In this document: positions 44,030 through 58,510 of the stretch, one piece after another | Layout of the letters: each line of letters begins with the position of its first letter | How positions within the stretch are numbered: position 1 is the stretch's first letter | DNA from: an uncultured Christensenellaceae bacterium | GTDB taxonomy: Bacteria; Bacillota; Clostridia; Christensenellales; UBA3700 | NCBI GenBank assembly: GCA_944380305.1 | Contig: CALWHF010000001.1 | Location: forward strand, 75,600-139,599 | DNA: 64,000 bases | Direction: 5' to 3' | Position numbers and translations under genes: made by a program | The notes under the pieces: generated by a model | Told to the model about the DNA's origin: nothing | Seen by the model: the letters and a program-made list of their open reading frames with translations, nothing else | Databases searched by the model: none

Positions 44030-45316
44030 ATGAAAAAAACGAAGATTGCGGCATTCATTGCCTGCTTTTGCATCATTCCCATATTGCTCGCGTCGTGCTC
44101 TGCCAGAAGCACTCTTCTCGGCGAGGCTGCCGTTCCAGCAAAGCTGTCTTACGACGAGACGCAAAGCGAAAACTTTATCAATATCAACACGGACGCGAAA
44201 AATTTTGCATCACAGTTCACCGAGAGGGCATATCTCGATTATGGTGGCAAGGACAATTTCGCCGTTTCCCCGATAGCCGTATACTCTGCTCTCGCGCTGG
44301 CGTCACGCTGCGCGGAAGGCGACACGAAAACGCAGATCCTTTCCTTGATAGGAGAAAACGCTCAAAACGATTTTTCTCTGCTTTACCGCTCTTTGAACAG
44401 AGAGACCAAGACAGGTATGCTGCAGCTCGCCAACAGTATCTGGTTGCAGGAAAACGTGCCGTTCGACAAAAGTTGCATAGATTCTTTGGCAAACGATTAT
44501 TTCTGTTATTCCTATGCCGCCGATTTCGCAAACGACAACGCAAGCGCGAACAGAGCCGTGCGCAAATTCGTAAAAGAACATACCCGCGGGCTTATCGATC
44601 AGGATTACGACATTTCACCCGAAACCATCTTCACGGTCGTGACCGCCATGTATCTGAAAGATACCTGGTTCGACGACGGCGATTCTCTCAGTTTCACAAA
44701 AGAAAAATACACTTTCGACGGAGCGGACGGAACAAAACTCGTCAGTCTTCTCGAAGGGATGTACAATTACGGCAGAGCTTACGTCGGCGACGGATTTACC
44801 AGTTTCTTTACCGTAACGCACAACGGATATAAAATCAAATTCATCCTTCCCGACGACGGGAAGTCGATAGACGACGTATTCAACGCAAAGACTATTGCCG
44901 AGATAAACGCCGTGACCGACTACGGCGCGACCGACGACTCTATCCGCACGCATTACCACACGAGATGTCTGTTCCCCGAGTTCGATGCTGGTTACGATGC
45001 GGATATTAAAGACGTACTCAGAGCTCTCGGCGTCACTTCGCTTTTCGGGAGCGAATGCGACCTGTCCGCTCTGCTGAGCGGCACGGACTTCGAAAACGAT
45101 GCTTACTGCTCAGAGGTCAGGCATACCGTAAAACTCTCTGTCGACAAGAGAGGCATCGAAGGCGCGGCGGTCATCGTGATGCCGACGGCGGGTGCCGCAG
45201 GTCCCGACGGGTACGAAAACGTATATTACGACTTCGTGCTTGACAAATCGTTCGGTTTTGTTGTCACAGACAGTCGTGACCTCCCGCTTTTTACTGGCGT
45301 AGTTAAAAAAGTATAG
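44030..45316 (+). CDS. Serpin-family protease inhibitor, lipoprotein
   Basis: Signal plus lipobox MKKTKIAAFIACFCIIPILLASC. Serpin core motifs include FAVSPIAVYSALALA. A hinge/reactive-centre-loop-like segment is present (GIEGAAVIVMPTAGAAG), as is the C-terminal FGFVVTD...PLFTGVV. Confidence 0.75.
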   Translation: MKKTKIAAFIACFCIIPILLASCSARSTLLGEAAVPAKLSYDETQSENFININTDAKNFASQFTERAYLDYGGKDNFAVSPIAVYSALALASRCAEGDTKTQILSLIGENAQNDFSLLYRSLNRETKTGMLQLANSIWLQENVPFDKSCIDSLANDYFCYSYAADFANDNASANRAVRKFVKEHTRGLIDQDYDISPETIFTVVTAMYLKDTWFDDGDSLSFTKEKYTFDGADGTKLVSLLEGMYNYGRAYVGDGFTSFFTVTHNGYKIKFILPDDGKSIDDVFNAKTIAEINAVTDYGATDDSIRTHYHTRCLFPEFDAGYDADIKDVLRALGVTSLFGSECDLSALLSGTDFENDAYCSEVRHTVKLSVDKRGIEGAAVIVMPTAGAAGPDGYENVYYDFVLDKSFGFVVTDSRDLPLFTGVVKKV

Positions 45317-45677: not shown

Positions 45678-46439
45678 TCAGACCGTTATGTAATTGGTCA
45701 GATTGGCTCTGTCGATCGCCATCTGCAACGCGGATATTTCGCCACGAAGCATCTTCAGATCGTCCTTGACGCGCTTGACGTCGTAGACGCATTCGGTATA
45801 CTCGACCACGCCGTTATAAGTCACGTTACGCGAAAGCTGTTTGTTTTCGGTCAGCGATTCGAGCTGGGCTTTCTTGTTCTGTTTCTGCGCGAGCATGACA
45901 AGAGCCTCCCCTATAGTTACGCCGAAACCGTCCACCTTTACGGTGCAGTTCGCCTTGGAAAGCGCGCAACGTATCGCTCGCATTTCGTCGTCGAGAGCGT
46001 CGATCTTCTTGCGGGTATCGTCGTAGTCGTAGTCGCCCGCGATCTTATTCTCTCCTTCCTTATAAGATACCTGACAGTATCTGTCCTCGTTGTCAACGAG
46101 CATTTCCTTCTGAGCTTCGAGCTCTTTTATCCTCTTCATTGCCTCGGTATTACATATCTTCATTTTATTATCCTCCTTTATTTCGTTTACATCTTCGTAT
46201 CCGAAGTCGACCTCGTCGTCGAAAAGAAAGTCGTCAAGGCCGAAATCGTCTGTGCCGTCGTCGAGTTCTTTTATTGCTTCGAAATCACCTGCGGTAAAAC
46301 GCGTAATGTGTTTAGACACTTCTTCGGGCATTGCCGCATAAGCCTCGAAAGACAAATGCTTTTTTACCTCGTCCGGCAACGACTCGTATCTTTGTCTGAG
46401 CTGTTCTTTTTCCATTGTTCTCTCCTTTTCTTTCGTCAT
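45678..46439 (-). CDS. Hypothetical acidic / coiled-coil protein
   Basis: 253-aa ORF. A second ATG at 46415 has the better RBS (AAGGAG, then 6 nt). The N-terminal third is extremely acidic (DDGTDDFGLDDFLFDDEVDFGYEDV). The C-terminal ~160 aa are helical with heptad-like periodicity (AMKRIKELEAQKEML...LRGEISALQMAIDRANLTN). Confidence 0.6.
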   Translation of the reverse strand: MTKEKERTMEKEQLRQRYESLPDEVKKHLSFEAYAAMPEEVSKHITRFTAGDFEAIKELDDGTDDFGLDDFLFDDEVDFGYEDVNEIKEDNKMKICNTEAMKRIKELEAQKEMLVDNEDRYCQVSYKEGENKIAGDYDYDDTRKKIDALDDEMRAIRCALSKANCTVKVDGFGVTIGEALVMLAQKQNKKAQLESLTENKQLSRNVTYNGVVEYTECVYDVKRVKDDLKMLRGEISALQMAIDRANLTNYITV

Positions 46440-46614: not shown

Positions 46615-47640
46615 ATGACCGAAAAAATAAATATAAACGTGCCCAAAGCCACTTTCGACGTGCTCATGAAGGATGCCGAATCTTTCGAGTTATACAAGAC
46701 GGACGGCAGAACGCCTAACAAAAACGCGCTCTACACTCATATAATAGTCAATTACCACGAAACTTTCCGCGCAAAAGAGGCGGAACTGTTCAACTATTTG
46801 AAAAAGACGCTCTCCCGCTCTCTGCTCCCCGCGCGCGATCCCGACTCTCTTTGTCTGGAAATAGCGTCGCACGTCAACAAAACGAAGGCATCCGCGGGTC
46901 GCGACAAATTCGACTGTTCCCTTTCGGTCAAGCCCACCAGAGAATCCGAACCCGTGATCGCTTACGTCGAAGAATATCTGCTCGCGGGAGCGACTCTTTC
47001 GGAGTATTTCCGCAATCTTTTTTCTTCCTACGCCTCTCTTCCGCAGGACGAACGCGAAAAGATCGTTTTCAAACCGCAATACGACGCGATTGCGAAAGCG
47101 GTCTCCGAAAGAAAAAAAGCTTTCATCACCACGACGGGCGGCAACGTAAAGAAATTCGAGATCTCGCCCTTCGCGCTGTCGGATGCGAAAGAAGAACTGC
47201 ACGTCTACGTCCTCGCCGTAGCCAAAGGGGAATGTATGCCTCTCAGACTTTCGAGAATAACATCCGTAAACGTCCTTCGCGACGCGGCTGTCTTTACAGA
47301 CGAACAGAGGCGGATATTCGAAAAAATGCTGACATACGGACCACAATTCAAATACGGCAAACGCGAAACCGAGGTCAAAGTACGCCTGACACCCATAGGC
47401 GCGGATCTGTTCAAAAAACTCTATGTCCACCGCCCGGTGCCTACGAAGATCGAAGACGATTGCTACTATTTCGAGTGCTCGTACACGCAGATAATTCAAT
47501 ATTTCGTTCGTTTCGGCAAAGACGCATACGTCGAATATCCCGAAAAGGTACGCGACGCGATTTTCTATTTTCACAAACACGCCTGCAATAATTATTACGC
47601 GACAAAAAGACGGCAGAACAAGAAAACCGATGCGGTCTGA
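46615..47640 (+). CDS. WYL-domain-containing putative transcriptional regulator
   Basis: 341 aa with RBS AGGAG 8 nt upstream. The central segment YDAIAKAVSERKKAFITTTGGNVKKFEISPFALSDAKEELHVYVLAVAKGECMPLRLSRITSV matches the WYL-domain pattern as I know it. A WCX-like C-terminal domain follows (VRLTPIGADLFKKLYV...VEYPEKVRD). Confidence 0.6.
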   Translation: MTEKININVPKATFDVLMKDAESFELYKTDGRTPNKNALYTHIIVNYHETFRAKEAELFNYLKKTLSRSLLPARDPDSLCLEIASHVNKTKASAGRDKFDCSLSVKPTRESEPVIAYVEEYLLAGATLSEYFRNLFSSYASLPQDEREKIVFKPQYDAIAKAVSERKKAFITTTGGNVKKFEISPFALSDAKEELHVYVLAVAKGECMPLRLSRITSVNVLRDAAVFTDEQRRIFEKMLTYGPQFKYGKRETEVKVRLTPIGADLFKKLYVHRPVPTKIEDDCYYFECSYTQIIQYFVRFGKDAYVEYPEKVRDAIFYFHKHACNNYYATKRRQNKKTDAV

Positions 47641-47675
47641 TCGGACGAAAGCGATTGATGTCTTCTCTGAATATA

Positions 47676-47708
47676 AATAGAGACGCCGAAAGGCGTCTCA
47701 TTTCTATT
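47676..47708. terminator. Bidirectional terminator between the convergent WYL and TIR genes
   Basis: GAGACGCC-gaaa-GGCGTCTC 8-bp stem (47680-47699) with A/T-rich flanks on both sides. Confidence 0.6.
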
Positions 47709-47726
47709 TGCTTTTGTTTATGTATT

Positions 47727-49034
47727 TTATCTTTCCGCCTCAAACAGCATGAAACCGAGAGTAAAGAAGAAGTCGTCGGCGAGAAAAGCGTCTTCGAGCG
47801 CGTCGTAATTCTCATCCATCCATTTTGCGTTCTCGGCATACAAAGCGTTGTCGGGATACTTTTCCGTCAGCATGTCGAAGTCGTTTTTGATAAACGAAAA
47901 ATACGTCATAAACAGAGCCTCTCTTTCGTCGTAATTCATAGACGAAGTATCCATACCGCTCTTTACCAGCCTGATATTTCTGAAACCCGCCTTATGCAGG
48001 AGCCCGAAAATCTGTCTGCCACTGTATCTGTAACCCGCAAGTTCGTTTTTCAGGCAACAGTCCATGGCGTGTTCGAAAAGCCCGTCGTTGTCGGGATAAG
48101 CGATATTCAACCCGTCGTCAATATCTTTAACGATTATCTTCGCCGACGGTTTCAGAAATCTTCGCACGGTCTTGAGCAGTTTCAGCGGATCTTTCAGATG
48201 AAGTATCAGCATCGATACGTTCACTACGTTGAAATCGGATATGCCGTATTTCTCGCAAAAACCTCTGATATTTTTCTCGAGGTCGTCGCACTCAAGACAA
48301 CATTCCTCGAAACATATCTTGTCGCTGCCGTATTTTTCGTTAGCCTTTGCGACGGCTTCGGCATTGCATTCAAGTCCCAAAAGACATTCGACGTTTTCTT
48401 TCGCCCCGAGCCTGTTCATAACGAAATCGCCGTTATTACAGCCCAGATCGAGTATCCTCATCGTCTGTTTTTCATTTGCTATCTTGTCGTAAAGAGCCTT
48501 GTCGAACGACTCCAGCAAAGTCTGCTGTATCTTCAGCCTCTTTTTCTCTTTCTCGTCGGCGTCGTCGAAATACATATTCGTTTTTCTCTCGATTCTGACT
48601 TCCTCTTCCTGACGAGCGGGTTTTATTATGGCTTTAATCTTGTGTTTGAGTTCCTGCACCGCGTTTTCGACGCTCTGCGTCGTAGCGTCTATCCAGTGCA
48701 TACGCTTGACGTAATATTCCATGGCTTTGGACAGATCTTCGTTGTCCAGCCTGAGCGGCAATATCGTCAATTCACCTTCCTTGTCGATAATGCGTTTGTA
48801 CGCCATCTCTACTTCGTTGAGAACATGCGGCGACCTCGACGACTCATTGTTGAGCAGTACGACAAACACGCTTGCCTCGTCTATCGCGCTGACTATGCTC
48901 GTTGCATAATCTCCTATTACGTCCCTCGGGGCGTACCAACATCTTATGCCGTCGTTTTCGAGTTCGGCGCAGATCCTGTCTACTATCGACTTCAGGCTGT
49001 GTTCGTAACTCAGAAACACATCTGTCTTTCCCAT
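47727..49034 (-). CDS. TIR domain fused to a class I SAM-dependent methyltransferase
   Basis: Start chosen at ATG 49034 (GGAGG 5 nt upstream); the track ORF extends to 49097. The N-terminal ~135 aa are DVFLSYEHSLKSIVDRICAELENDGIRCWYAPRDVIGDYATSIVSAIDEASVFVVLLNNESSRSPHVLNEVEMAY, a TIR pattern including the conserved Glu. The C-terminal part has MTase motif I ILDLGCNNG, an acidic post-I residue (LGLECN), and LKPSAKIIVKD. Confidence 0.8.
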   Translation of the reverse strand: MGKTDVFLSYEHSLKSIVDRICAELENDGIRCWYAPRDVIGDYATSIVSAIDEASVFVVLLNNESSRSPHVLNEVEMAYKRIIDKEGELTILPLRLDNEDLSKAMEYYVKRMHWIDATTQSVENAVQELKHKIKAIIKPARQEEEVRIERKTNMYFDDADEKEKKRLKIQQTLLESFDKALYDKIANEKQTMRILDLGCNNGDFVMNRLGAKENVECLLGLECNAEAVAKANEKYGSDKICFEECCLECDDLEKNIRGFCEKYGISDFNVVNVSMLILHLKDPLKLLKTVRRFLKPSAKIIVKDIDDGLNIAYPDNDGLFEHAMDCCLKNELAGYRYSGRQIFGLLHKAGFRNIRLVKSGMDTSSMNYDEREALFMTYFSFIKNDFDMLTEKYPDNALYAENAKWMDENYDALEDAFLADDFFFTLGFMLFEAER

Positions 49035-49102
49035 ATCTTCCTCCGTATCCCTGCCTTTTGCCTTGCGCATACGCACGTTTTCAACGCACACCTGCAAATA
49101 TA

Positions 49103-49131
49103 ATTATATTATCGCTGATTATTATTGTCAA
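49103..49131 (-). promoter_or_regulatory. Consensus sigma-A promoter for the TIR-methyltransferase gene
   Basis: On the minus strand: TTGACA (49131-49126), an exact 17-nt spacer, then TATAAT (49108-49103). The -35 box lies inside the 7-7-7 palindrome TTGTCAA-n7-TTGACAA (49125-49145). Confidence 0.6.
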
Positions 49132-49268: not shown

Positions 49269-49637
49269 TCATTTTGATATAACAAGTTCACTACAAGTTG
49301 TTTCCATAACCTTCATCGCTTTGCCACTGTAAGTTTCGCTCCTGTACCACGCCGTGAATTTCATTTTGCCGTCGATATTCCTGACCGAAACGTCTATGGC
49401 TGTATTTTGCATCTTCAGCGTTTTTTCTGGCGCACCCATATTCGATGCGTATTCCGAAAGCAGTACGGGCTGAAACTTTTTCATCGCCTCCTGACTGCAA
49501 TCGAACTCTATCGTGAAGTAGTAGGTGTCACCCGCCCTGTAAACGCTGTCGTTGTACGTTTCGGCGAGACACTCCCTGTTTTTAGCTCGTAGATCGTCAA
49601 TTTTTCGGCAATGAAATAGTTTTATTTTCCGCATCAC
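49269..49637 (-). CDS. Hypothetical protein
   Basis: 122-aa ORF with non-repetitive composition and no recognisable motif. The RBS is weak. It lies upstream of the TIR gene promoter. Confidence 0.45.
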   Translation of the reverse strand: MMRKIKLFHCRKIDDLRAKNRECLAETYNDSVYRAGDTYYFTIEFDCSQEAMKKFQPVLLSEYASNMGAPEKTLKMQNTAIDVSVRNIDGKMKFTAWYRSETYSGKAMKVMETTCSELVISK

Positions 49638-49924: not shown

Positions 49925-51091
49925 TCAGTCAAGCGGAACATGCTCGTGCCGCACGTTCGTATTCTCGCCTATCGTAAAGACAGTTCCGCCGTTGATGTCA
50001 TCGTCGTTATAGCACCTGTCTCCCGTCTTGAGAGCGTATGTCAGTCTGACGCCTTTGTATAAAAGCGAATAGCTGTTGACGTGATCATGGCCTGCGAAAA
50101 CGTATCTCGTGCTGCCCTCTTCGAGGATCGCATCGAACATTCCGCTGTTCTTCTTACTGCAACAAACGTCTTCTCTGATCTCGCCGAAAAATCCGTATTC
50201 CTCGCTCTTTCCGCTGAGAAGATAATCGCAATACGCGATATAATATTCGGGCAGGGCGATATGTATGAACAGCGACGATTCGGGCATCGGCGCGCCTTTT
50301 GACGCGTTGTACTGCGCCGCCCCGCGCACGCACCAGCGATACCACTCTATCTGCGCGGGCTTGATATAGTCGTAGTCGTGACCAATCTGCCTCGTCTTCA
50401 GATTGCCGTCGGAATCACGCTCGAGCTCGAAATCCGAGTCCAGCTTATACGAATATATTTTCTCCTCTTCGGGCAAATCGTCGAAATCCGCACCGGCACC
50501 CGAATCCATCATAATCAGAGATTCGACGATAACGTCGCCTTCCATGATGTTTATGACGTAATTTCCCACTCCGCCGATATTTGCAGGACCTTTTTTGAAC
50601 AGACAATATTCGGACGCCTCGTATTTTTCAGCCGCCGCATTGAGATCTACGTTGCCCTCTCCGTCGTGATTGCCGTTTATCGGTGCCCATGGAATTTTGA
50701 AACTGTCCATCAGTTCTATAAGGTCTTCGATCGAATATTTGACGAACGGAGCCCATATCTGGTCGCCCGTCATGGTTATAAGATCGGGTTTGACGCGCTC
50801 AACGAGTTTCCTTATCGTATTTTCGGTATCCTCTCGTTGAAAAATATCGAGAAAATCGTTATATTGTATATCTGTAAGGTTGAGAATAACAAAATCCTTT
50901 CCGGGTTCTTTCTGCAACGTGAAGGTATCGTTAATATCGTACTCCATACCTGCCTCCCATACTTCCGTACCAGGCGTTCCTTTGACTGCACTCAGCGCAA
51001 ACGCGGCAGCGAGCGAGCCTACGAATATCACGATAACGCACAAAACGGATATAAGGATAATCAGTCCCTTGTTCTTTTTCTTTTTTGCCAT
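49925..51091 (-). CDS. Membrane-anchored calcineurin-like metallophosphoesterase
   Basis: Start at MAKKKKNKGLIILISVLCVIVIF (ATG 51091, GAGGA RBS). Motifs are GDQIW, NGNHD and GHDHVN. The track ORF extends to 51238. Confidence 0.8.
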   Translation of the reverse strand: MAKKKKNKGLIILISVLCVIVIFVGSLAAAFALSAVKGTPGTEVWEAGMEYDINDTFTLQKEPGKDFVILNLTDIQYNDFLDIFQREDTENTIRKLVERVKPDLITMTGDQIWAPFVKYSIEDLIELMDSFKIPWAPINGNHDGEGNVDLNAAAEKYEASEYCLFKKGPANIGGVGNYVINIMEGDVIVESLIMMDSGAGADFDDLPEEEKIYSYKLDSDFELERDSDGNLKTRQIGHDYDYIKPAQIEWYRWCVRGAAQYNASKGAPMPESSLFIHIALPEYYIAYCDYLLSGKSEEYGFFGEIREDVCCSKKNSGMFDAILEEGSTRYVFAGHDHVNSYSLLYKGVRLTYALKTGDRCYNDDDINGGTVFTIGENTNVRHEHVPLD

Positions 51092-51336
51092 GGTGTCCTC
51101 GGTTGTTTGTCGTATTCCTTGTCCGATCCGACGCAGATTGTATGCATAGATAACGCCTTTTGATATATTATAGCACAAAATCGACAGACTTTCAATCCCG
51201 AAGGTGTTTTTTTCGAAAGCGTGACATCTCCTGACCAAAACCGCACATCACGCGGCAAGAACAATTTTTTTATTCAATCCCCGTCAAAATCCTTGCCAAG
51301 AAGCTCGATGCTGTGCTATAATCGCATTACTCGCGT

Positions 51337-51413
51337 GGAGGCATAGCCCAGTTGGTTAGAGCGCATGCTTGACATGCATGAGGTCACAGGTTCAAGTCCT
51401 GTTGTCTCCACCA
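51337..51413 (+). tRNA. tRNA-Val (anticodon GAC)
   Basis: Hand-folded. The acceptor stem is GGAGGCA/TGTCTCC (one G-T pair). The anticodon stem CATGC/GCATG carries loop TTGACAT. The T arm is ACAGG-TTCAAGT-CCTGT, and the 3' end is an encoded ACCA. Confidence 0.85.
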
Positions 51414-51414
51414 A

Positions 51415-51456
51415 AAGAAACCAAAATCGAATCTGTCGGTTTTGGTTTCTTTTTTT
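51415..51456 (+). terminator. Rho-independent terminator after tRNA-Val
   Basis: AAGAAACCAAAA / TTTTGGTTTCTT 12-bp stem followed by a T-run. Confidence 0.75.
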
Positions 51457-51599
51457 GTAGACCCGGAAGTTTAATCGCGCGCAAAAAGATGATCGCATTT
51501 CGAAAAAACTCAAATGCGCGCGGTTCAGAAAACGCAAGCAATAAGTCACGCCTTATGCTTCATTCCTCTTTGCGTTTTATTTTTGCGCAAGCAAAAGCC

Positions 51600-51653
51600 C
51601 CTGTTGTCTCCACCATACGCAAACAAAGTCGAACCTGTCTTTGTTTGCTTTTT
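51600..51653 (+). repeat. Second copy of the tRNA-Val 3' end plus a homologous terminator hairpin (att-like scar)
   Basis: CCTGTTGTCTCCACCA (51600-51615) is identical to the tRNA 3' end at 51398-51413. It is followed by GCAAACAAAG-tcgaacctgt-CTTTGTTTGC plus T5. That loop (tcgaacctgt) resembles the loop of the genuine terminator (tcgaatctgtc). Confidence 0.7.
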
Positions 51654-51740
51654 CTTTTATCACCTTTTTGCAGGCATAGAAAAAGGCAATCCGAAATATC
51701 TCGGGTTGCCTTATTTCTTACTGTTCGGATATTATATCTT

Positions 51741-52358
51741 TTAGACTTTATCTTTTATCGCATTGTATTTATTCTGGATTCTTTCTCGTCTTCTCCATAC
51801 GTTGGAGCGGTCTATTTTTAACGTATCCGCTATTTCAACAAAGCGCATACCTGCTATATAGCAGTCCAGAGTTTGTCTTTCACCTTTGGTCAGCTTCATC
51901 TTGCGTATTATCTTAGCACACTTTCTGAAGGATTCTTCTAAATCTTCCTTGAAAAACTCCTGTTCGTAGCAATCTGTTTTTATATAGATTTCTCTCGTAT
52001 TTCTGTTAAAAAGCCATCTCTTGTAAATCTCGTTGCTAACGACTCGGCTGCACAGTCTGTACAACGTAACAAGTTTACCTGTCTTCGGATCTTCGCATAA
52101 ATCCAATACGTATTCACCGAAATGCTCGCATAAAAAGCAAATTGCCGCCTGAGCTAAGTAGTATCCTTCCGTGATTATGTAGCCGGGCACGTTCTTGTAG
52201 TTAATATCCCTTACAAGTCCGACGTACACGCTTCTGGGTACTTTTATAAGCACCAATTTCTGCACCGTTTTCAGCGCAATAAGTTCCCCGATCTGCATTA
52301 CGTTACCAGGGGAGATCTTCTCCTCAAACACATCGTAACAGTTTCTTTTTGTTCCCAT
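51741..52358 (-). CDS. Sigma-70 region-4-like HTH protein (mobile-element-type small sigma/regulator)
   Basis: 205 aa. The C-terminus LTKGERQTLDCYIAGMRFVEIADTLKIDRSNVWRRRERI matches the sigma-70 region 4 / LuxR-like HTH pattern. The N-terminal part is unrecognised. Confidence 0.5.
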   Translation of the reverse strand: MGTKRNCYDVFEEKISPGNVMQIGELIALKTVQKLVLIKVPRSVYVGLVRDINYKNVPGYIITEGYYLAQAAICFLCEHFGEYVLDLCEDPKTGKLVTLYRLCSRVVSNEIYKRWLFNRNTREIYIKTDCYEQEFFKEDLEESFRKCAKIIRKMKLTKGERQTLDCYIAGMRFVEIADTLKIDRSNVWRRRERIQNKYNAIKDKV

Positions 52359-52728
52359 TTTCTTTACCTCCGAAAATAAATTTGCCTTTCGGCAGGCAAC
52401 AACGGAACATAAGCCGAATTGAGGTAAAGATATATTTTAGTCATTATCCGAAAGTCAACGGATAAAAAGAAAAATCCTGAAACAGGATTTTACGACCGTT
52501 TACTTTTGAGAGGATTATGCGACAATGCCAAACGAAAAGGCAAATTCGGAGGAAAAGAAAAGCCGTAAGACAAATTGAATTTAATCTGCAAATAAGATGT
52601 TCGGAATAAGGTACGCAATGAAGCGAAAAATAAGCGAGAGGCGAAAAGCGGAGAAATGCCCAAAGCGGTTCAGCGGGCATCTCCGCCCGCTACTGCTTTT
52701 CCGTTTTGCGACATTCCGAATCTGAGTA

Positions 52729-52795
52729 GGCGTGTGCTTGTCTGGCGGAGCGAAGCGACGCCACTTGTCATAGACAAGCACACGCCACGGTGCCA
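52729..52795 (+). repeat. 15-bp perfect inverted repeat whose right arm belongs to a 31-32-nt sequence repeated at 57102-57132
   Basis: GGCGTGTGCTTGTCT (52729-52743) and AGACAAGCACACGCC (52772-52786). CTTGTCATAGACAAGCACACGCCACGGTGCCA (52764-52795) recurs at 57102-57132. Confidence 0.8.
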
Positions 52796-52929
52796 TAAAA
52801 TAGTTTCATCTGCTTAACAATTATTATTGCTACGCTATGCAAGCTTATTATAAAATAAAGTAAATAGACATAGCTCACCTTGATTTTTAATTTTTAGTTA
52901 CATGTCTGCTATAATTGAAATAAATTCAG

Positions 52930-52948
52930 CTTTTACAGATTTTTATTC
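52930..52948 (+). repeat. 19-nt exact direct repeat, copy 1
   Basis: CTTTTACAGATTTTTATTC is identical to 63765-63783. Confidence 0.85.
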
Positions 52949-52966
52949 TGTTATGTAGGATTAATA

Positions 52967-53083
52967 ATGGTACTTAGTTATAAGAAATTATGGAAAATAC
53001 TTATTAATCGCGACATGAAAAAGAAAGATTTATGTGCTGCGGCAGGAATTAGCCATACTTCGATGTCAAAACTTGTAATGTAA
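52967..53083 (+). pseudogene. Truncated XRE-type HTH regulator (38 codons)
   Basis: My translation is MVLSYKKLWKILINRDMKKKDLCAAAGISHTSMSKLVM*. This is the first ~2.5 helices of the short Cro/C1-type HTH proteins common in Firmicutes, cut off by a stop. A tandem TGTAATAA TGTAATAA follows, then an abrupt AT-to-GC composition change near 53090. Confidence 0.55.
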
Positions 53084-53105
53084 TAATGTAATAAGCTACA
53101 ACCCG

Positions 53106-53200
53106 CGACAGCCGACCAATGCTCCCGCCACGCGGGCGACAGCCGACTATTGCTGCGGTCACACCGCTGACAGTCGACTAATGCTCCCCGTCACACGGGG
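53106..53200 (+). repeat. Three head-to-tail 31/31/33-nt units, each an 18-nt conserved box plus a covarying 5-bp hairpin
   Basis: Units lie at 53106-53136, 53137-53167 and 53168-53200. The boxes are CGACAGCCGACCAATGCT, CGACAGCCGACTATTGCT and TGACAGTCGACTAATGCT. The hairpins are CCCGC-cac-GCGGG, GCGGT-cac-ACCGC and CCCCG-tcaca-CGGGG. Confidence 0.85.
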
Positions 53201-53403
53201 CGAGGCGTTTAACGCAGTAGCTGCGAAAATTTGCCGATTTAAACTGGGTTCGTATTATTCAGGTCCGGTATTACGCAAACTTTGCGGCTTCGCTTACGCA
53301 TAAGCGGAACAAGTTGATAAGACGGGTTTTTTATGGGGAATTATTTGTCGTGTGGTATTGCCGGGCGACAGGTTGGCTCTGAGGTTAATGATCGAAAGAA
53401 TAC

Positions 53404-53432
53404 GGGCGCCGGATCCCGGCGCCCGCTTTTTT
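53404..53432 (+). terminator. Strong rho-independent terminator
   Basis: GGGCGCCGG-atc-CCGGCGCCC 9-bp GC stem, then GC and T6. Confidence 0.8.
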
Positions 53433-53618
53433 CACAGAAATCGAAATTTGATAATATACATTCTTATATGTCTGTCTAAGTCGTATAAAACAATCCGGAA
53501 AGGATTTCATTAGCGTCCGCTGCTGCCATTGCTAAACGAGTTGAGTAAGACATAAGATTATAGCGTAACAGATCTTTGAATTTCAAATTTCAAATATCTT
53601 CTTTTAATAAAAATCGTA

Positions 53619-54650
53619 TCATTTGCGTATATACTCATCGTTGTGGGCATTGCTTACAAGCCACATCTTAGCGACATAGTCGTCCGTAGGCCACATAGAC
53701 GCCGGAAGCGGCGATTCTCCGTTGTCGTTTTTACAATACCAACCGTTTTTATTCATAAACGTTGCGCTCTCGAGAGAAGAACAATACTCGAATGCGGCTA
53801 CTCCTATATATTTGAGATTTTCAGGGAACGTTATGCTTGTAAGTCCGGTATTCCTGAATGCGCCAGCGTTGATTTTCTCGATACTTTCAGGCAAAACAAC
53901 GCTTTCTAACGAGGTGCAGTTTGCAAAAGCGTAGCTGCCGATCTCTGTAATGCCTTCAGCGATCGTCAAAGAAGAATCTGAGCCGGTATAAGTCAATATC
54001 ACGCTTTCGTCATAGAGAGTATAGTCTCCTTCAACTGCGATCTTGGTATCTGCGACGTCGTCAATGATATTTCTCGCGTAATAAGCCGCATAACCGTTAT
54101 TTGTGCTGCCTGCCGTAAGAGAGATAGAAGATTTATTGACAATCTCCACCAGTCTGAAGCAACCGGCAAACGCACTGTCTCCTATGCTTTGCAGATTTTC
54201 GCCCAAGGTTACTCTTACGAGTCCTTCGCAATGCCAGAACGCGCTGCTTTTTATCGTGGTTACGGCGTCGGGAATAACGACTTCTTTAAGACCGATACAG
54301 GAATAAAATGCCTCATTTCCGATCTCGGTTACGCTATCCGGGATCACGACGCTTTCAAGATCGTAGCACTCGTAAAATGCCTGAACGGCAATTGACGTAA
54401 CTGCTTTGCCGTTGACCTCGGCAAGTATCGTTACGCTTGTCAAGTCATCAGTACATTTGTAAAACTGATAAGTTCCGTCATCGTTCTTTTTGTAAGTCAA
54501 ACCGTCATTTTTCACCCAAGTATCGTCTTCTGTAGAAGTATCATCCTGGTCGGAAGCAGGAGTACAAGCGACCGCAAACATCGCAAACGCCAACACAACG
54601 ACCACTGCGAGTACGGTCAGAAGAAATACCGATCTTCTTTTTTGCAACAT
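53619..54650 (-). CDS. BspA-type leucine-rich-repeat surface lipoprotein
   Basis: Signal plus lipobox LLTVLAVVVVLAFAMFAVAC. It has repeated ~23-aa LRR_5-type units (IPDSVTEIGNEAFYSCIGLKEVVIPDAVTTIKSSAFWHCEGLVRVTLGENLQSIGDSAFAGC...). Confidence 0.8.
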   Translation of the reverse strand: MLQKRRSVFLLTVLAVVVVLAFAMFAVACTPASDQDDTSTEDDTWVKNDGLTYKKNDDGTYQFYKCTDDLTSVTILAEVNGKAVTSIAVQAFYECYDLESVVIPDSVTEIGNEAFYSCIGLKEVVIPDAVTTIKSSAFWHCEGLVRVTLGENLQSIGDSAFAGCFRLVEIVNKSSISLTAGSTNNGYAAYYARNIIDDVADTKIAVEGDYTLYDESVILTYTGSDSSLTIAEGITEIGSYAFANCTSLESVVLPESIEKINAGAFRNTGLTSITFPENLKYIGVAAFEYCSSLESATFMNKNGWYCKNDNGESPLPASMWPTDDYVAKMWLVSNAHNDEYIRK

Positions 54651-54828
54651 AAATCATATCCTCCTTTCAAACGACTGTCCGCCGTTTTTTATTGATAATT
54701 GGATTTTAGCAAACCAAGTGCTAAAAAAGTGCTAAAAACCCAGTGTTCATCGAAGATTTTTTTATTTTTTTTGCAAATTGCGAACAAAAAATTTGACGGA
54801 AGTCTCTGCACGAATGTAAAATTTAGTT

Positions 54829-56235
54829 ATGCGGGTATCGAAACAATCAAAACAACGGTTAAAAACGATTGCAATATTTATTGCCGACCTTATGGCTCTT
54901 GTCGTAGGTGTGATCTCTGTCGCGATACTGTCTTCAACGAACACTTCCTCGACAGTATATTTTTCGGGATTTCTGATCTATTTTTCTATTATCGCCCTAT
55001 TCCTGTTCACGCTGATAATTATCGTGGACTGCTATGCGATGTTTGCGATAAAGACGTCGACGTATCACTCTTTGCTGATGGCACTTTGCATAATGGTCTG
55101 CTGTTTACTGTCTGAAGACTATCTGTCGCTGTTAGATCTGTCCTCGGCGTACGGAACCGTCTCGAACATCGTCCAGTACGGAGTTTATACGTTATTCCTC
55201 GCGATAGTCGTCATTTTCTTCGACTTCTCTTACAAACTCGGGATGTCAAAAAAGCGTAAGCTGAGCTATTTTGCCGTCTGTGTACTGTCTTTCGTGCTTT
55301 TTGCCGCTCTGTATCGGGTAAAACTGCATATCTTGGCGTATTGCCTTGGCCTTGCGATGACAGTCGAACTGTCTTATTACACTTCTCACAACCCGAATGT
55401 GCACTGCTTCAATTCTCATTCTTTCCGCCCGACGCAGTTTATCACGTTCGCTCTGAGCGGGCTCATCCTTACCAACACGATATATTCGTCGGGGTTTGTA
55501 GAGAACTACCCCTTCGGGACGACCTCTTTTTACTTGTTCACGTCGACTCTTGTTTACGCTTTTATATATTTCAGTTTTATTCGCAAAGCGACGAAAAGAG
55601 ACCTCGCAAACGCGCAGTACAGAGCGAAGTACGAACAGGTAAAATCGGGTATGTTGCAAGCGCAGATAAAGCCGCATTTCGTGTTCAACGTGCTGTTATC
55701 GATAAAGAATCTCTACCACAGCGACACCGAACTGGGGGACGAAGCAATAGATCTGTTTTCCAAACACCTGCGCGCGCAGGTAGAAGCCGCAGGTGCCGAC
55801 ATGGTGCCTTTTGAAAAAGAACTGGACACCATCCGCGTGTTTACCGATCTAGAAAACATACGTCAGGATAAAGAACTGAACCTGATATTCGATATAGAAT
55901 ATTCCGATTTTCAGATACCTGCCCTGTCGCTGCAGACTTTTATCGAAAATGCGATAAAATACAGCAGGATAAACGAAAAAGAGGACGGATATATCCGCAT
56001 ATCCTCCCGATGCGAAAACGGAGAAATATTGCTCGAGATCTCGGATAACGGCGTGGGGTTCGACCCTTCGGAGATCAGGGACACGTCTTACGGGATACGC
56101 AATTCTGTCGAACGCTTCCGTCTTCTGACGGGCGTGACTCCCGAAATAATCAGCTCACCAGGAAACGGCACGTCGATAATGATACGTTTCAATAAATCCT
56201 CATCGGAGAAACACCATGAAAATAATAATAGTTGA
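54829..56235 (+). CDS. Membrane sensor histidine kinase, LytS/YehU-type (His_kinase internal region + HATPase)
   Basis: Multi-TM N-terminal half. The H-box region is QIKPHFVFNVLLSIKNLYH. The ATPase boxes are FIENAIKYS, SDNGVGF and GNGTSIMIRF. Confidence 0.8.
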   Translation: MRVSKQSKQRLKTIAIFIADLMALVVGVISVAILSSTNTSSTVYFSGFLIYFSIIALFLFTLIIIVDCYAMFAIKTSTYHSLLMALCIMVCCLLSEDYLSLLDLSSAYGTVSNIVQYGVYTLFLAIVVIFFDFSYKLGMSKKRKLSYFAVCVLSFVLFAALYRVKLHILAYCLGLAMTVELSYYTSHNPNVHCFNSHSFRPTQFITFALSGLILTNTIYSSGFVENYPFGTTSFYLFTSTLVYAFIYFSFIRKATKRDLANAQYRAKYEQVKSGMLQAQIKPHFVFNVLLSIKNLYHSDTELGDEAIDLFSKHLRAQVEAAGADMVPFEKELDTIRVFTDLENIRQDKELNLIFDIEYSDFQIPALSLQTFIENAIKYSRINEKEDGYIRISSRCENGEILLEISDNGVGFDPSEIRDTSYGIRNSVERFRLLTGVTPEIISSPGNGTSIMIRFNKSSSEKHHENNNS

Positions 56236-57004
56236 CGACGAATTGCACGCTTTGCAGCTCTTTCTATCAGATCTGATCGGGCTCGACATCGAGTACCGAT
56301 TCTTCAAGGACGACAAAAACGCGATACTCAAATACGTCGTTTACGAAAACCCCGACGGAGTCTTTCTCGACGTGAATATGCCCGGGATCAACGGCATAGA
56401 TCTGGCATCCGAACTCATCGCGATCAAGCCGTCGATAAAGATTGTCTTCGCAACGGGTATGAATATCTCGGAAAACGCGCTGCCGAACGACGTAGCCGCC
56501 AACACCGTCGGCTTTCTGTACAAACCCTATGACAAAGATAAGCTTTATTATTACCTGTCGGAGATAGCCAACAAGACTAGAAAAATGACGGTCAAGACAT
56601 TCGGATCTTTCGATTGCTTCATCGACGACCGCATAGTCAGATTCTCGTCAGCCAAATCCAAAGAACTGTTTGCGCTGCTTATCGCCTACAGAGGCAAAAC
56701 TCTGACGATGAACGACGCAATATCCCAGATTTGGCCAGATACCGACGTGGATAAAAGCAAGATACTGTATCGCGACGCCGTATGGCGGCTCAGAAAAACG
56801 CTGAGCGAACTTCATTTCGATTGCGTCGACTTCAGACGGGCTTGCCTTGTGCTGAACAAATCCAACCTGATCTGCGACAGCTGGGATTACGCCGAAGGAA
56901 AAAACAAAAATTACAACGGCGAATTTATGAAAAATTACGATTGGAGCATAGCTTATCTCCCCATTCTTGACAAGCTTAATTCAAACACGGACACAACGAC
57001 CTGA
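56216..57004 (+). CDS. Response regulator: receiver domain + SARP/OmpR-like winged-helix DNA-binding domain
   Basis: The receiver domain reads MKIIIVDDE...GVFLDVNMPGINGIDLA. The C-terminal domain reads FGSFDCFIDDRIVRFSSAKSKELFALLIAYRGKTLTMNDAISQIWPD...AVWRLRKTL. It overlaps the kinase gene by 20 nt. Confidence 0.75.
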   Translation: MKIIIVDDELHALQLFLSDLIGLDIEYRFFKDDKNAILKYVVYENPDGVFLDVNMPGINGIDLASELIAIKPSIKIVFATGMNISENALPNDVAANTVGFLYKPYDKDKLYYYLSEIANKTRKMTVKTFGSFDCFIDDRIVRFSSAKSKELFALLIAYRGKTLTMNDAISQIWPDTDVDKSKILYRDAVWRLRKTLSELHFDCVDFRRACLVLNKSNLICDSWDYAEGKNKNYNGEFMKNYDWSIAYLPILDKLNSNTDTTT

Positions 57005-57031
57005 TCTCTTACTGAAGTTTCCTGCGCCGTT

Positions 57032-57361
57032 TTGTTACTGCGTGTACCCGCACGCGACGTAATGCGTAAAGTTTTTTTCGATCGTTTCGTCGTCTACGCA
57101 GCTTGTCATAGACAAACACACGCACGGTGCCAAACGAAGTTTTACGGTGAATTGTCAAACCAAGTGCAAACTTTTGAAAAAGAAAACAAGATCCAGGATC
57201 CTGACGACGACGGCAGCGTTACAATCGCCGTATCATACGACGAGAACGGCAAGCCGAACGATTACGAAAAGTTCAGCTTGATAGTTTGCAGTCGCTCTAC
57301 CGGTGAATACAGCAATCTCTTTTATAAATTCCGTATTGTAGATCATGTGTCTGCAATTTGA
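57032..57361 (+). pseudogene. Probable gene fragment (only the C-terminal ~70 codons look protein-like)
   Basis: The first ~35 codons run through the 57102-57132 repeat and are Arg/Cys-rich nonsense. The remainder looks like the tail of a real protein (ELSNQVQTFEKENKIQDPDDDGSVTIAVSYDENGKPNDYEKFSLIVCSRSTGEYSNLFYKFRIVDHV). There is no RBS. Confidence 0.3.
57102..57132 (+). repeat. Second copy of the 31-32-nt junction repeat
   Basis: CTTGTCATAGACAAACACACGCACGGTGCCA, with one mismatch and one 1-nt gap relative to 52764-52795. The left inverted-repeat arm is absent here. Confidence 0.8.
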
Positions 57362-57478
57362 TTATAATATATCTCTTAATCTGACAGGATTTGTCAATTA
57401 TTATTTCAGATTGCAGAATATCTTGATTTTTCGGTCCGTTTGTCGGTCTGAGGTGGGGAACAGGGGCGAAAAGGGCGT

Positions 57479-57530
57479 AAAAAATTGCAACGGCTGTATA
57501 GGTGTGCCTGAAAAGAACAGCCGTTGCAAT
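57479..57530 (-). terminator. Orphan minus-strand terminator-like hairpin
   Basis: ATTGCAACGGCTGT / ACAGCCGTTGCAAT 14-bp perfect stem. T6 follows on the minus strand only. There is no annotated minus-strand gene upstream of it. Confidence 0.5.
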
Positions 57531-57638
57531 CGAATGAGTATATCTGCCTACCCCATTGTTTTTATGATAATATATTCATAGCTCGCATACATATTATGGC
57601 GAGGAATAGAATTGCGTTGTTTCTTGTTGGTTTCCGTG

Positions 57639-57668
57639 TTGACAAAACAAGGCAGTTTGTTATAGAAT
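57639..57668 (+). promoter_or_regulatory. Candidate promoter of the Spo0A-like regulator gene
   Basis: TTGACA (57639-57644), an 18-nt spacer, then TAGAAT (57663-57668). AAGGTG lies upstream of ATG 57685. Confidence 0.35.
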
Positions 57669-57684
57669 AATAATAAGGTGCTTT

Positions 57685-58467: not shown

Positions 58468-58510
58468 AAATACGGATTGCACTTCCCGTGCAATCCGTCA
58501 AATGCTCGTA

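What the first reader, a model, noticed from the sequence alone, without database searches (positions are those of the whole stretch)
47727..49034. TIR domain covalently fused to a SAM-dependent methyltransferase
The N-terminal ~135 aa have the TIR hallmarks.
- A betaA strand, DVFLSYEH.
- GIRCWYAPRDV.
- VFVVLLNNESSRSPHVLNEV, with a Glu in the position of the catalytic Glu of NAD-cleaving TIRs (S-x-W/H-x-x-x-E pattern).
After a charged helical linker comes a class I methyltransferase: an EKKRLKIQQ lead-in, motif I ILDLGCNNG, the acidic residue in LGLECN, and LKPSAKIIVKD. Established knowledge is that bacterial TIR domains act as NADases or make ADPR-derived signals in immunity. I am not aware of a characterised TIR-methyltransferase fusion.
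All of the following hypotheses are inference.
- The MTase domain senses or modifies a phage or host nucleic acid or small molecule and gates NAD depletion.
- It methylates a TIR-derived nucleotide signal.
- It provides self-protection, in an R-M-like logic, while the TIR kills.
Basis: partly seen in the sequence, partly recalled or inferred. Interest (0 to 1): 0.85.

Follow-up and report, generated by a model that had tools for sequence, protein, structure and literature searches.

The report
TIR–methyltransferase fusion, probable defence protein
This gene really does encode an NAD-cleaving-type TIR domain fused to a SAM-methyltransferase domain. It belongs to a large, unstudied family in gut anaerobes that looks like a one-gene immune sensor–effector, but its activity has not been tested.

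Summary
Window 47727..49034 (-) encodes a 435-aa protein with an N-terminal TIR domain (Pfam TIR_2, 9e-19) and a C-terminal class I methyltransferase domain (Methyltransf_23, 9e-13). The TIR model resembles plant and bacterial NADase TIRs at TM about 0.8. The invariant Glu74 aligns with their catalytic Glu. The gene has its own promoter, ribosome-binding site and terminator.

It is not a one-off. Hundreds of full-length homologues occur in gut Clostridia, Bacilli/Mollicutes, Actinobacteria and one archaeon, in variable neighbourhoods.

Both halves are swappable. The same TIR subtype is fused to NB-ARC/TPR, MORN or Sel1 modules. The same methyltransferase module carries other TIR subtypes, a cytidine deaminase or a GNAT.

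A monophyletic subclade has lost its SAM motifs and always sits behind one or two GNAT genes. The window copy has intact motifs and stands alone.

My best reading (about 0.45) is a self-contained conflict protein whose SAM-binding module gates a TIR NADase. The main rival is a bifunctional enzyme that makes or modifies a nucleotide signal. I found no paper describing this fusion. It is a new variant of a known kind, of moderate to high interest.

The parts
47727..49034 (-). TIR-methyltransferase gene, 435 aa plus stop codon
   Evidence: ORF list and translation. The identical 435-aa gene is called on 12 public contigs.
48624..49022 (-). TIR domain, residues 5-137
   Evidence: Pfam TIR_2 9.1e-19. 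AF2 pLDDT 90.6 and Foldseek TMq up to 0.81 to plant, Cat1, AbTir and SPARTA TIRs.
48813..48815 (-). Codon of Glu74, the candidate catalytic glutamate, within SRSPHVLNEVE (48807..48839)
   Evidence: Aligned to the Glu of RPV1 SRWCLDEL and Cat1 SDWCWDELE. Invariant in 82 homologues. Coordinates checked.
48912..48941 (-). Signature loop CWYAPRDVIG after strand B (BB-loop region) that defines this TIR subtype
   Evidence: W33, Y34, A35, P36, R37 and G41 are invariant in 82 sequences. Used as the search pattern.
48555..48623 (-). Charged linker, residues 138-160. Its C-terminal part (R150-x-x-N-x-Y-F) already belongs to the methyltransferase module.
   Evidence: pLDDT is below 50 at residues 141-145. 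The R..N.YY motif is kept in the deaminase fusion and in short forms.
47730..48554 (-). Class I SAM methyltransferase-fold module, residues 161-435, including the E..RL..Q lid helix
   Evidence: Methyltransf_23, _31, _12 and _11. PDB 3mgg at 3e-13 by profile and 1e-15 by fold. Seven strands in the model.
48429..48458 (-). Motif I, RILDLGCNNG (the SAM loop, G-x-x-x-G form)
   Evidence: D196 is invariant. The loop is kept in all 30 clade A groups and degenerate in the 11 clade B groups.
48363..48383 (-). Post-I motif LLGLECN, with acidic Glu222 expected to bind the SAM ribose
   Evidence: E or D in all clade A groups, lost in clade B. The ribose-binding role follows from established class I methyltransferase knowledge.
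48090..48128 (-). KDIDDGLNIAYPD, an acidic motif after strand 5; candidate substrate or ligand site
   Evidence: D307 and D315 are invariant. The motif is kept even in the clade that lost its SAM motifs, and a related D.G....P(D/E) is present in 3mgg.
48012..48038 (-). AGYRYSGRQ, with conserved G334, R336 and R340; candidate substrate or ligand site
   Evidence: Invariant in 82 sequences and kept in clade B. GRQIY is shared with 3mgg.
49103..49131 (-). Sigma-70-type promoter TTGACA-17-TATAAT, 12 of 12 matches
   Evidence: sequence read.
49040..49044 (-). Ribosome-binding site GGAGG, 5 nt before ATG 49034
   Evidence: Sequence read.
47680..47699 (.). Bidirectional intrinsic terminator (8-bp stem, 6 G-C pairs) between this gene and the convergent 341-aa gene

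Best explanation
The gene encodes a cytoplasmic two-domain protein. A catalytically competent TIR domain sits at the N-terminus. A short flexible linker joins it to a SAM-binding class I methyltransferase-fold module of the LaeA/Methyltransf_23/3mgg type.

I read it as a self-contained, single-gene conflict (anti-phage or anti-mobile-element) protein:
- The C-terminal module is the specificity or sensor part. It binds SAM and an unknown ligand or substrate, probably an amine- or nucleotide-like small molecule or an invader component.
- This module controls the assembly-dependent activation of the TIR effector.
- The TIR then consumes NAD+ (or makes an ADPR-derived nucleotide) and arrests the infected cell.

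Shown here:
- the two folds;
- invariance of the catalytic Glu and of the SAM motifs within the window's clade;
- an autonomous transcription unit;
- a large family spread by horizontal transfer in variable contexts;
- domain swapping on both sides of the fusion.

Inferred, not shown:
- NADase activity;
- the sensor role of the methyltransferase module;
- the defence phenotype;
- the trigger.
For: - Folds and catalytic residues.
- Autonomy: a perfect promoter, an RBS and a bidirectional terminator. There is no conserved neighbour in the intact-motif clade.
- TIR-side modularity: the same CWYAPRD TIR subtype heads NB-ARC+TPR STAND proteins, MORN-repeat proteins and Sel1/TPR proteins. In these architectures the C-terminus is a binding or sensor module.
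- Methyltransferase-side modularity: the same module at 43% identity, with the same linker motif, carries a cytidine/dCMP deaminase instead of the TIR (P0246). That gene lies next to a YhcG nuclease and a PLD-helicase. The module also carries at least two other TIR subtypes and C-terminal GNAT domains. Of 98 multidomain representatives, 67 have TIR_2, 6 have GNAT and 1 has a deaminase.
- Distribution typical of defence genes: 307 confirmed loci across Clostridia, Bacilli/Acholeplasma/Erysipelotrichaceae, Olsenella/Atopobiaceae, one Bacteroides and one Methanomethylophilaceae archaeon. Clade A and clade B paralogues occur in the same MAG in four cases.
- Neighbours: other TIR proteins, AAA_21+RloB, Cas9/Cas1, MADS and DRT components, a prophage integrase.
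- Locus variability: the window and L022 share the flanking GH3 gene (76% aa identity) but differ in what surrounds the TIR-MTase.
Against: - There is no experimental datum for any family member, and no PADLOC or NCBIfam family covers it.
- Many homologues sit among housekeeping genes.
- In the window the only defence-flavoured neighbour is a WYL-like protein, and that neighbour is not conserved elsewhere.
- The SAM motifs are strictly conserved across 30 clade A groups. In clade B they are lost only where GNAT genes are present. This pattern points to real chemistry (methyl or acetyl transfer) rather than passive sensing.
- Short forms without any effector domain may exist, which would imply a substrate independent of the TIR.
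- The full-length fusion is absent from the phage and plasmid collections, so mobility is inferred only from phyletic patchiness.
Confidence: 0.45

Rival explanations
1. Bifunctional signal-making enzyme. The TIR converts NAD+ into an ADPR-derived or base-exchanged nucleotide. The fused methyltransferase methylates that product or the incoming nucleophile. In the subclade that lost SAM binding, the upstream GNATs supply acetylation instead. A separate receptor or effector reads the modified nucleotide.
For: - SAM motifs are conserved in clade A. In clade B they are lost and always replaced by one or two GNAT genes 3-45 nt upstream. The putative substrate motifs KDIDDG..AYPD and SGxRxSGRQ stay conserved.
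- MTase-GNAT fusions exist.
- Some loci carry candidate downstream components: the TIR_2-700-300-780-GNAT cassette and RyR-domain proteins.
- Profile and fold neighbours include amine N-methyltransferases: BamL/BpumL, PMT, CNMT/TNMT.
Against: - The window copy, and most clade A copies, have no conserved partner that could read a signal.
- The same methyltransferase module is fused to a deaminase and to a GNAT, and may occur alone, so its substrate need not be a TIR product.
- Clade B is monophyletic, so the GNAT link may be a single historical event.
Confidence: 0.2
2. Non-immune enzyme acting on a nucleoside, amine xenobiotic or RNA 5' end. The TIR would act as an N-glycosidase (or NAD-cap deNAMing enzyme) and the methyltransferase would modify the same molecule, as a detoxification or RNA-end-processing activity.
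For: - The partner domains of the module (TIR, deaminase, GNAT) are all small-molecule or nucleotide-modifying enzymes.
- Many loci lie among housekeeping genes.
- TIR proteins have been reported to remove nicotinamide from NAD-capped RNA (PMC10937652, listed).
- There are faint cap-methyltransferase-like Pfam hits in 7 of 98 members.
Against: - The TIR subtype is shared with NLR-like STAND proteins.
- The phyletic pattern is patchy and paralogues co-occur in single genomes.
- There is no conserved metabolic operon.
- The cap-methyltransferase hits are generic class I similarity.
Confidence: 0.1
3. R-M-like or toxin-antidote logic. The methyltransferase marks a host molecule so that the TIR spares self; unmarked invader molecules, or loss of marking, unleash the TIR.
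For: - The two activities are covalently coupled.
- SAM-binding capacity is never lost without GNAT genes appearing, which could be read as one protective modification replaced by another.
Against: - There is no DNA or RNA methyltransferase signature: no N6_Mtase, no C5, no target-recognition domain. The nearest relatives are small-molecule methyltransferases.
- TIR domains are not known to discriminate methylated targets (established knowledge).
- A fused antidote cannot be lost separately from the toxin, which removes the usual addiction logic (inference).
Confidence: 0.07
4. Host-directed TIR protein of a gut commensal (Tcp-like), interfering with animal TLR signalling or releasing NAD metabolites into the gut.
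For: The family is almost confined to gut and rumen organisms. Gut bacterial TIRs with NADase activity are documented (PMC9092222).
Against: - No signal peptide or secretion gene is visible: the protein starts directly with strand A of the TIR.
- The motifs of this subtype are absent from the supplementary files of that gut TIR study.
- The domain-swap pattern fits intracellular conflict systems.
Confidence: 0.03

Closest known systems
Ligand-gated TIR effectors (CBASS TIR-SAVED and TIR-STING; type III CRISPR Cat1 CARF-TIR)
   Same: One polypeptide combines a TIR NADase with a ligand-binding module. Cat1 and TIR-STING are the best sequence matches of the TIR half in PDB (3.6e-6 and 3e-5). The catalytic Glu is aligned.
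   Different: The sensor here is a class I methyltransferase fold, not SAVED, STING or CARF. No cyclase or CRISPR locus is nearby. The ligand is unknown. Filament formation was not tested.
Thoeris ThsB (TIR signal generator paired with ThsA)
   Same: A bacterial TIR_2-type domain. There are weak PADLOC ThsB hits (0.0019). Some paralogues hit Pfam ThsB_TIR.
   Different: No ThsA-like (SIR2/Macro-SLOG) gene lies next to the window gene or next to clade A homologues. ThsB has no methyltransferase domain.
Bacterial TIR-STAND/NLR-like proteins (TIR + NB-ARC + TPR)
   Same: They share the same TIR subtype, 44-51% identical over residues 3-137 and including the CWYAPRD loop.
   Different: Here the NTPase and repeat sensor are replaced by a 275-aa methyltransferase module. 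There is no P-loop.
SARM1 (metabolite-gated TIR NADase)
   Same: Conceptually similar: a TIR NADase held in check by a domain that binds a central metabolite. This is a lead from established knowledge, not a test.
   Different: The regulatory domain is unrelated (ARM, binding NMN/NAD+). SARM1 has SAM (sterile alpha motif) oligomerisation domains. It is an animal protein.
PDB 3mgg and LaeA-like/Methyltransf_23 small-molecule methyltransferases (GtmA/TmtA, OxaG, RebM, JHAMT, BamL)
   Same: The fold and the E..RL..Q lid helix. The motifs D.G....P(D/E) and GRQIY are shared with 3mgg.
   Different: Those proteins are stand-alone enzymes, and 3mgg has no known substrate. None is fused to a TIR. Identity is only 13-19%.
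Restriction-modification systems
   Same: Only the abstract pairing of a methyltransferase with a harmful activity.
   Different: This is not a nucleic-acid methyltransferase family, there is no nuclease, and there is no separate antidote gene.

Membership tests
TIR domain superfamily (Pfam clan STIR; TIR_2) | Profile match above the curated threshold | tested here: met
   TIR_2 scores 68.6 bits against a cut-off of 28, E=9.1e-19, residues 6-129.
TIR domain superfamily (Pfam clan STIR; TIR_2) | Flavodoxin-like alternating beta/alpha fold superposable on solved TIR domains | tested here: met
   AF2 pLDDT 90.6. Foldseek TMq 0.72-0.81 to RPS4, RPV1 and RUN1, and 0.68-0.77 to Cat1, AbTir and SPARTA.
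Enzymatic (NAD+-cleaving) TIRs | Catalytic Glu at the start of helix C, in an S-x-(W/H)-x-x-x-E context | tested here: met
   Glu74 aligns with the Glu of RPV1 and Cat1 and is invariant in 82 homologues.
Enzymatic (NAD+-cleaving) TIRs | NAD+ hydrolase or cyclase activity that depends on self-association | not testable with these tools
   Needs biochemistry. No oligomer model could be made.
Class I SAM-dependent methyltransferases | Seven-stranded Rossmann-like fold and a profile match | tested here: met
   Methyltransf_23 scores 48.7 bits against a cut-off of 27. Seven strands in the model. 686 PDB matches at E<=0.001, led by methyltransferases.
Class I SAM-dependent methyltransferases | Motif I glycine loop (GxGxG) and an acidic residue at the end of strand 2 | tested here: inconclusive
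   The loop is LDLGCNNG, with outer glycines kept and the central Gly replaced by Asn. Glu222 is present. The pattern is conserved in 30 clade A groups. SAM binding itself was not tested. The Asp usually found after strand 3 is Cys in the window protein.
Thoeris | A TIR protein (ThsB) encoded next to a ThsA effector (SIR2 or Macro plus SLOG) | tested here: not met
   No ThsA-type hit among the six neighbouring window proteins or among the partners in homologous loci. The rest of the window was not scanned.
CBASS / Pycsar / type III CRISPR TIR effectors | A SAVED, STING, cNMP-binding or CARF sensor domain, and an adjacent cyclase or CRISPR locus | tested here: not met
   The C-terminal domain is a methyltransferase fold. 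The PADLOC SAVED_TIR hit covers only the TIR part, residues 5-152.
SPARTA / short pAgo systems | A TIR-APAZ protein with an adjacent short Argonaute | tested here: not met
   No APAZ and no Ago neighbour. Only the TIR fold is similar.
Restriction-modification | A DNA methyltransferase (N6/N4/C5 motifs, target-recognition domain) plus a cognate nuclease | tested here: not met
   No DNA methyltransferase family in Pfam or NCBIfam. The nearest structures are small-molecule methyltransferases. No nuclease neighbour.
LaeA-like / Methyltransf_23 / 3mgg-type methyltransferases | An N-terminal E..RL..Q lid helix ahead of motif I, plus family-specific motifs after strand 5 | tested here: met
   EKKRLKIQQ aligns with EREALRLSEQ of 3mgg. 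DIDDG..AYPD aligns with GDHGSCYFHPE, and SGRQIF with VGRQIY. The link to fungal LaeA-type enzymes rests on Foldseek hits to GtmA, TmtA and OxaG and on my recollection of their motif.

The most novel reading that the evidence does not exclude
The C-terminal module is a working amine-capping enzyme whose chemistry is interchangeable: N-methylation in the window's clade, N-acetylation by partner GNATs in the pseudo-methyltransferase clade. It acts on a TIR-made ADPR conjugate or its nucleophile. On this reading the family would produce a previously unknown class of methylated or acetylated nucleotide immune signals. A related variant is that the SAM-binding domain guards the cellular SAM pool, and fires the TIR when a phage SAM-degrading enzyme depletes it.
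Probability: 0.12. Interest if true: 0.9.

Novelty: new variant of a known kind. Interest (0 to 1): 0.6.

Why it matters
TIR domains are the shared enzymatic core of immunity in bacteria, plants and animals. What differs between systems, and what is usually unknown, is how each TIR is switched on.

This family pairs a TIR with a SAM-binding enzyme fold. It offers natural controls:
- a deaminase-for-TIR swap;
- a clade that became a pseudo-enzyme and recruited acetyltransferases;
- copies embedded in a five-gene cassette.

If the methyltransferase module gates the TIR, it would be a new trigger type that links immunity to methyl-donor metabolism or to modification of an invader molecule. If instead it modifies the TIR product, it would add a new family of nucleotide signals.

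The family is abundant in human and animal gut anaerobes, where phage defence is poorly charted.

Tried and rejected
- PADLOC and NCBIfam gave no known system or equivalog. There were only a TIR-restricted SAVED_TIR/ThsB hit and sub-threshold CmoB/UbiG/UbiE hits.
- PHROGs gave nothing for the protein.
- The phage, plasmid and IMG/VR collections hold only TIR-only partial matches and no full-length fusion. The BFVD fold search returned only generic methyltransferases.
- Six full-text literature searches, two TIR surveys and the supplement of a gut TIR study contained no TIR-methyltransferase fusion and none of this subtype's motifs.
- I suspected that P0364 carries an N-terminal HEPN domain because of an Rx4H motif. 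Neither Pfam nor a PDB search supports this.
- I suspected that the RyR-domain neighbour (F14) has a ThsA-like SLOG domain. Only the RyR domain is detectable.
- The separate TIR + methyltransferase operon in L011 is not a split version of this protein. Its methyltransferase is only generically related (hhalign probability 37%).
- The 482-aa ORF antisense to the gene is a codon-usage artefact.
- My first greedy ORF caller dropped the true gene in several loci, and a GNAT in L046, because of such antisense ORFs. I corrected this.
- The Fisher test for the GNAT link (p about 6e-7) should not be read as 11 independent events, because clade B is monophyletic.
Full report
**Observation.** The window has an ORF on the minus strand from 49034 (ATG) to 47727, encoding 435 aa. 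Pfam gives TIR_2 on residues 6-129 (E=9.1e-19, 68.6 bits, cut-off 28). It gives Methyltransf_23 on residues 183-355 (E=9.3e-13), with Methyltransf_31, _12 and _11 also above threshold. The finding's coordinates and domain calls are correct.

**Gene anatomy.**
- A perfect sigma-70-type promoter (TTGACA-17-TATAAT) lies at 49131->49103 on the minus strand.
- GGAGG sits 5 nt before ATG 49034.
- An 8-bp, G+C-rich bidirectional terminator at 47680-47699 separates the gene from a convergent 341-aa gene.

The longer TTG start at 49097 lies immediately downstream of the -10 box, with no room for a leader or RBS. The ATG that gives 447-aa calls in some databases has no ribosome-binding site. Homologues all start at M-x-K-x-DVF. 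The gene is therefore a monocistronic unit.

A 482-aa ORF runs antisense over the whole gene. It exists because the gene has no TTA, CTA or TCA codons. The neighbouring genes share this avoidance, so the antisense ORF is an artefact.

**TIR half.**
- An AF2 model of residues 1-140 (pLDDT 90.6, pTM 0.86) has the beta-alpha order of a TIR domain.
- It matches the plant TIR NADases RPS4, RPV1 and RUN1 at TMq 0.72-0.81, and also Cat1, AbTir and the SPARTA TIR.
- Profile alignments against PDB sequences put Glu74 (SPHVLNEVE) on the Glu of RPV1 SRWCLDEL and Cat1 SDWCWDELE.
- In 82 homologues the following are invariant: Glu74, Ser68, Leu72 and Asn73; the loop W33-Y34-A35-P36-R37 with G41; and M105, Y107, Y108, R111, H113 and W114.

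The domain has what an enzymatic TIR needs at sequence level. Activity itself cannot be tested here.

**Methyltransferase half.**
- The full-length model (pLDDT 90.9, pTM 0.67) has only residues 141-145 disordered. It shows a seven-stranded class I fold preceded by a long lid helix.
- The best match, by profile (3e-13) and by fold (1e-15, TMt 0.77), is 3mgg, a Methanosarcina mazei methyltransferase whose PDB title names no substrate.
- Next come small-molecule methyltransferases: LahSb, RebM, TleD, phosphoethanolamine N-methyltransferases, JHAMT, BamL/BpumL, GtmA/TmtA and OxaG.
- 3mgg shares the E..RL..Q helix, a D.G....P(D/E) motif and GRQIY.
- NCBIfam gives only sub-threshold CmoB/UbiG/UbiE hits. 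There is no DNA or RNA methyltransferase signature.
- Motif I is LDLGCNNG, with the outer glycines kept, and the post-I acidic residue is Glu222.

**The family.**
- A search of 5.8 billion protein clusters found 356 relatives. The best 120 are nearly all 430-450 aa, 41-71% identical, and have the same two-domain layout. None is named apart from one 'SAM-dependent methyltransferase'.
- A scan of one genome per prokaryotic species confirmed 307 loci. Full-length copies occur in Christensenellales-like and other Clostridia, Bacilli, Acholeplasma, Erysipelotrichaceae, Olsenella/Atopobiaceae, one Bacteroides MAG and one Methanomethylophilaceae archaeon.
- A profile of the methyltransferase module alone finds 349 representatives at the 50% clustering level with E<=1e-30.
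- The window protein is found unchanged on 12 contigs from different samples, always in the same context.

**Modularity.** Both halves are exchanged in nature.
- The same TIR subtype (44-51% identity, CWYAPRD loop) heads proteins with NB-ARC+TPR (about 800 aa, NLR-like), MORN repeats or Sel1/TPR repeats.
- The same methyltransferase module, with the same R..N.YY/E..RL..Q lead-in, carries several alternatives:
  - a cytidine/dCMP deaminase domain in P0246 (PF00383, 9.6e-15; module 43% identical), encoded beside a YhcG nuclease and a PLD-helicase;
  - at least two other TIR subtypes;
  - C-terminal GNAT domains in P0342, P0344, P0347 and P0371;
  - N-terminal regions that I could not assign.
- Among 98 multidomain representatives, 67 have TIR_2, 6 have GNAT and 1 has a deaminase.
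- Forms of about 285 aa without any extra domain are listed. Some of these may be fragments.

**Two clades.** I dereplicated 71 loci into 41 groups at 80% identity and compared motifs with neighbours.
- Clade A comprises 30 groups, including the window. These keep LDxGxxxG, the post-I acidic residue and the LHL motif.
- Clade B comprises 11 groups, which have lost all three motifs (for example LDFNTLSP, CLSYN, MDL). Pfam no longer recognises a methyltransferase in these.
- Clade B still keeps the TIR Glu and the motifs KDIDDG..AYPD and SGxRxSGRQ.
- All 11 clade B groups have one or two GNAT genes, or a fused double GNAT, directly upstream on the same strand, with gaps of 3-45 nt.
- In clade A a GNAT lies directly upstream only in L022 and L037. 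There it is the last gene of a five-gene cassette: TIR_2 of about 390 aa, then about 700 aa, about 300 aa, about 780 aa, then GNAT.
- GNATs make up 19 of the 134 proteins within two genes of the fusion.
- Clade B is monophyletic in a neighbour-joining tree. The association is therefore probably one origin that has since been maintained, not 11 independent events.
- Four MAGs carry one clade A copy and one clade B copy. L029 has them in tandem, as A-GNAT-GNAT-B. The two clades are thus not redundant.

**Contexts.**
- Clade A copies have no conserved partner.
- Neighbours include other TIR proteins, AAA_21+RloB, a prophage integrase, RyR-domain proteins and HTH regulators. In single cases they include Cas9/Cas1, MADS and DRT components. 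Many neighbours are housekeeping genes.
- In the window the gene lies between a 122-aa gene plus a metallophosphoesterase gene (with tRNA-Val beyond them) on one side, and a WYL-like 341-aa gene, a 253-aa gene, a serpin and a GH3 glycosidase on the other.
- The Christensenella MAG locus L022 has the orthologous GH3 (76% aa identity) directly next to its TIR-MTase (64%). It lacks the three intervening genes and carries the five-gene cassette upstream.
- The locus is therefore a variable spot. G+C falls from about 0.52 to about 0.46 across it.

**Interpretation.** The most economical reading is a single-protein sensor-effector. TIR NADases are switched on by induced self-association (established knowledge from SARM1, TIR-SAVED, TIR-STING, Cat1, SPARTA and plant NLRs). 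In every other architecture of this TIR subtype, the C-terminus is a binding or sensor module. The methyltransferase module accepts alternative effector-type heads, namely the deaminase and other TIR subtypes. I therefore propose that the SAM-binding module recognises a ligand or substrate and gates the TIR, which depletes NAD+ or makes an ADPR-type product. My confidence is about 0.45.

The main weakness is that the SAM motifs are conserved and are lost only where GNATs appear. That pattern argues for real group-transfer chemistry. It keeps alive the rival model in which the module modifies a TIR-derived molecule or its nucleophile (0.2). A non-immune small-molecule or RNA-end enzyme (0.1), R-M-like self-marking (0.07) and a host-directed Tcp-like role (0.03) are less likely, for the reasons given in the rival entries.

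**Comparison and novelty.** The protein is a member of the TIR superfamily and of the class I methyltransferases. It is not a member of Thoeris, CBASS/Pycsar, SPARTA, TIR-NLR or R-M systems, because a defining component is missing in each case. I expect it to work like the ligand-gated TIR effectors. Searches of the paper library found no description of the fusion. I rate it a new variant of a known kind, with interest 0.6: a large, well-defined and experimentally tractable family, but without any functional data, and in a field where new TIR fusions are common.

Noticed in passing
window 47655..49103 (+): A 482-aa ORF runs exactly antisense to the TIR-MTase gene and is longer than it. The sense gene has no TTA, CTA or TCA codons, and the same avoidance is seen in neighbouring genes, several of which also carry long antisense ORFs. 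This is a codon-usage artefact that can mislead longest-ORF gene calling.
   Followed up: yes
window 45678..46439 (-) and 46615..47640 (+): A divergent gene pair: a 253-aa protein (phrog_25222 at 9.7e-8; weak DIP1984/DUF6847 similarity) and a 341-aa WYL-like protein (PADLOC WYL at 1.7e-10). Together with a serpin (44030..45316) they lie between GH3 and the TIR-MTase here but are absent from the related locus L022. Possibly a separate small regulatory or defence module.
   Followed up: partly
L022 2789..9956; also L037, L014/L015, L005-L008/L069: A recurrent uncharacterised five-gene cassette next to the TIR-MTase: TIR_2 protein (about 390 aa), about 700 aa, about 300 aa (weak AAA_31/PDC-M28B), about 780 aa, and a GNAT (about 200 aa). 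Three of the five proteins have no Pfam hit. It is a candidate multi-gene defence system.
   Followed up: partly
L034 1685..6362; L058 1612..5947; L028 1253..9040: Large proteins (680-990 aa) flank the TIR-MTase in about nine groups. One has an HD-like motif plus a RyR domain; others have N-terminal transmembrane segments. Only the RyR domain is detectable.
   Followed up: partly
P0246 (locus L099 4256..5680): A cytidine/dCMP-deaminase domain fused to the same methyltransferase module in place of the TIR, next to a YhcG-type nuclease and a 1120-aa PLD-helicase.
   Followed up: partly
P0342, P0344, P0347, P0371: Fusions of this methyltransferase family (intact motif I) with a C-terminal GNAT domain ending in a Cys-rich CPxC...CxC motif. 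This is an independent link between this methyltransferase family and acetyltransferases.
   Followed up: partly
L011 1533..3535: An operon of a 407-aa TIR protein and a 258-aa class I methyltransferase from an unrelated family lies 5 kb from the TIR-MTase gene. It is absent from the otherwise identical contigs L009 and L010. It represents a second, independent TIR-methyltransferase association.
   Followed up: partly
window 49269..49637 (-): A 122-aa gene of unknown function lies just upstream of the TIR-MTase promoter. It is conserved in the same-species contigs (121 aa) but not next to homologues elsewhere. An unrelated 119-aa gene follows the fusion in L001-L004.
   Followed up: no
window 51337..51413 and about 51000..60000: tRNA-Val lies 2.3 kb from the gene, and G+C falls to 0.40-0.45 beyond it. 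Many public contigs of this species end just past the metallophosphoesterase gene, which suggests a repeat or a strain-variable region there.
   Followed up: no
L046 728..1804: A DUF4062/TIR-like protein lies 2.4 kb upstream of a clade B copy. DUF4062 proteins are described as TIR-like NADases of a defence system in a 2026 preprint (10.64898/2026.05.01.722283, listed).
   Followed up: no
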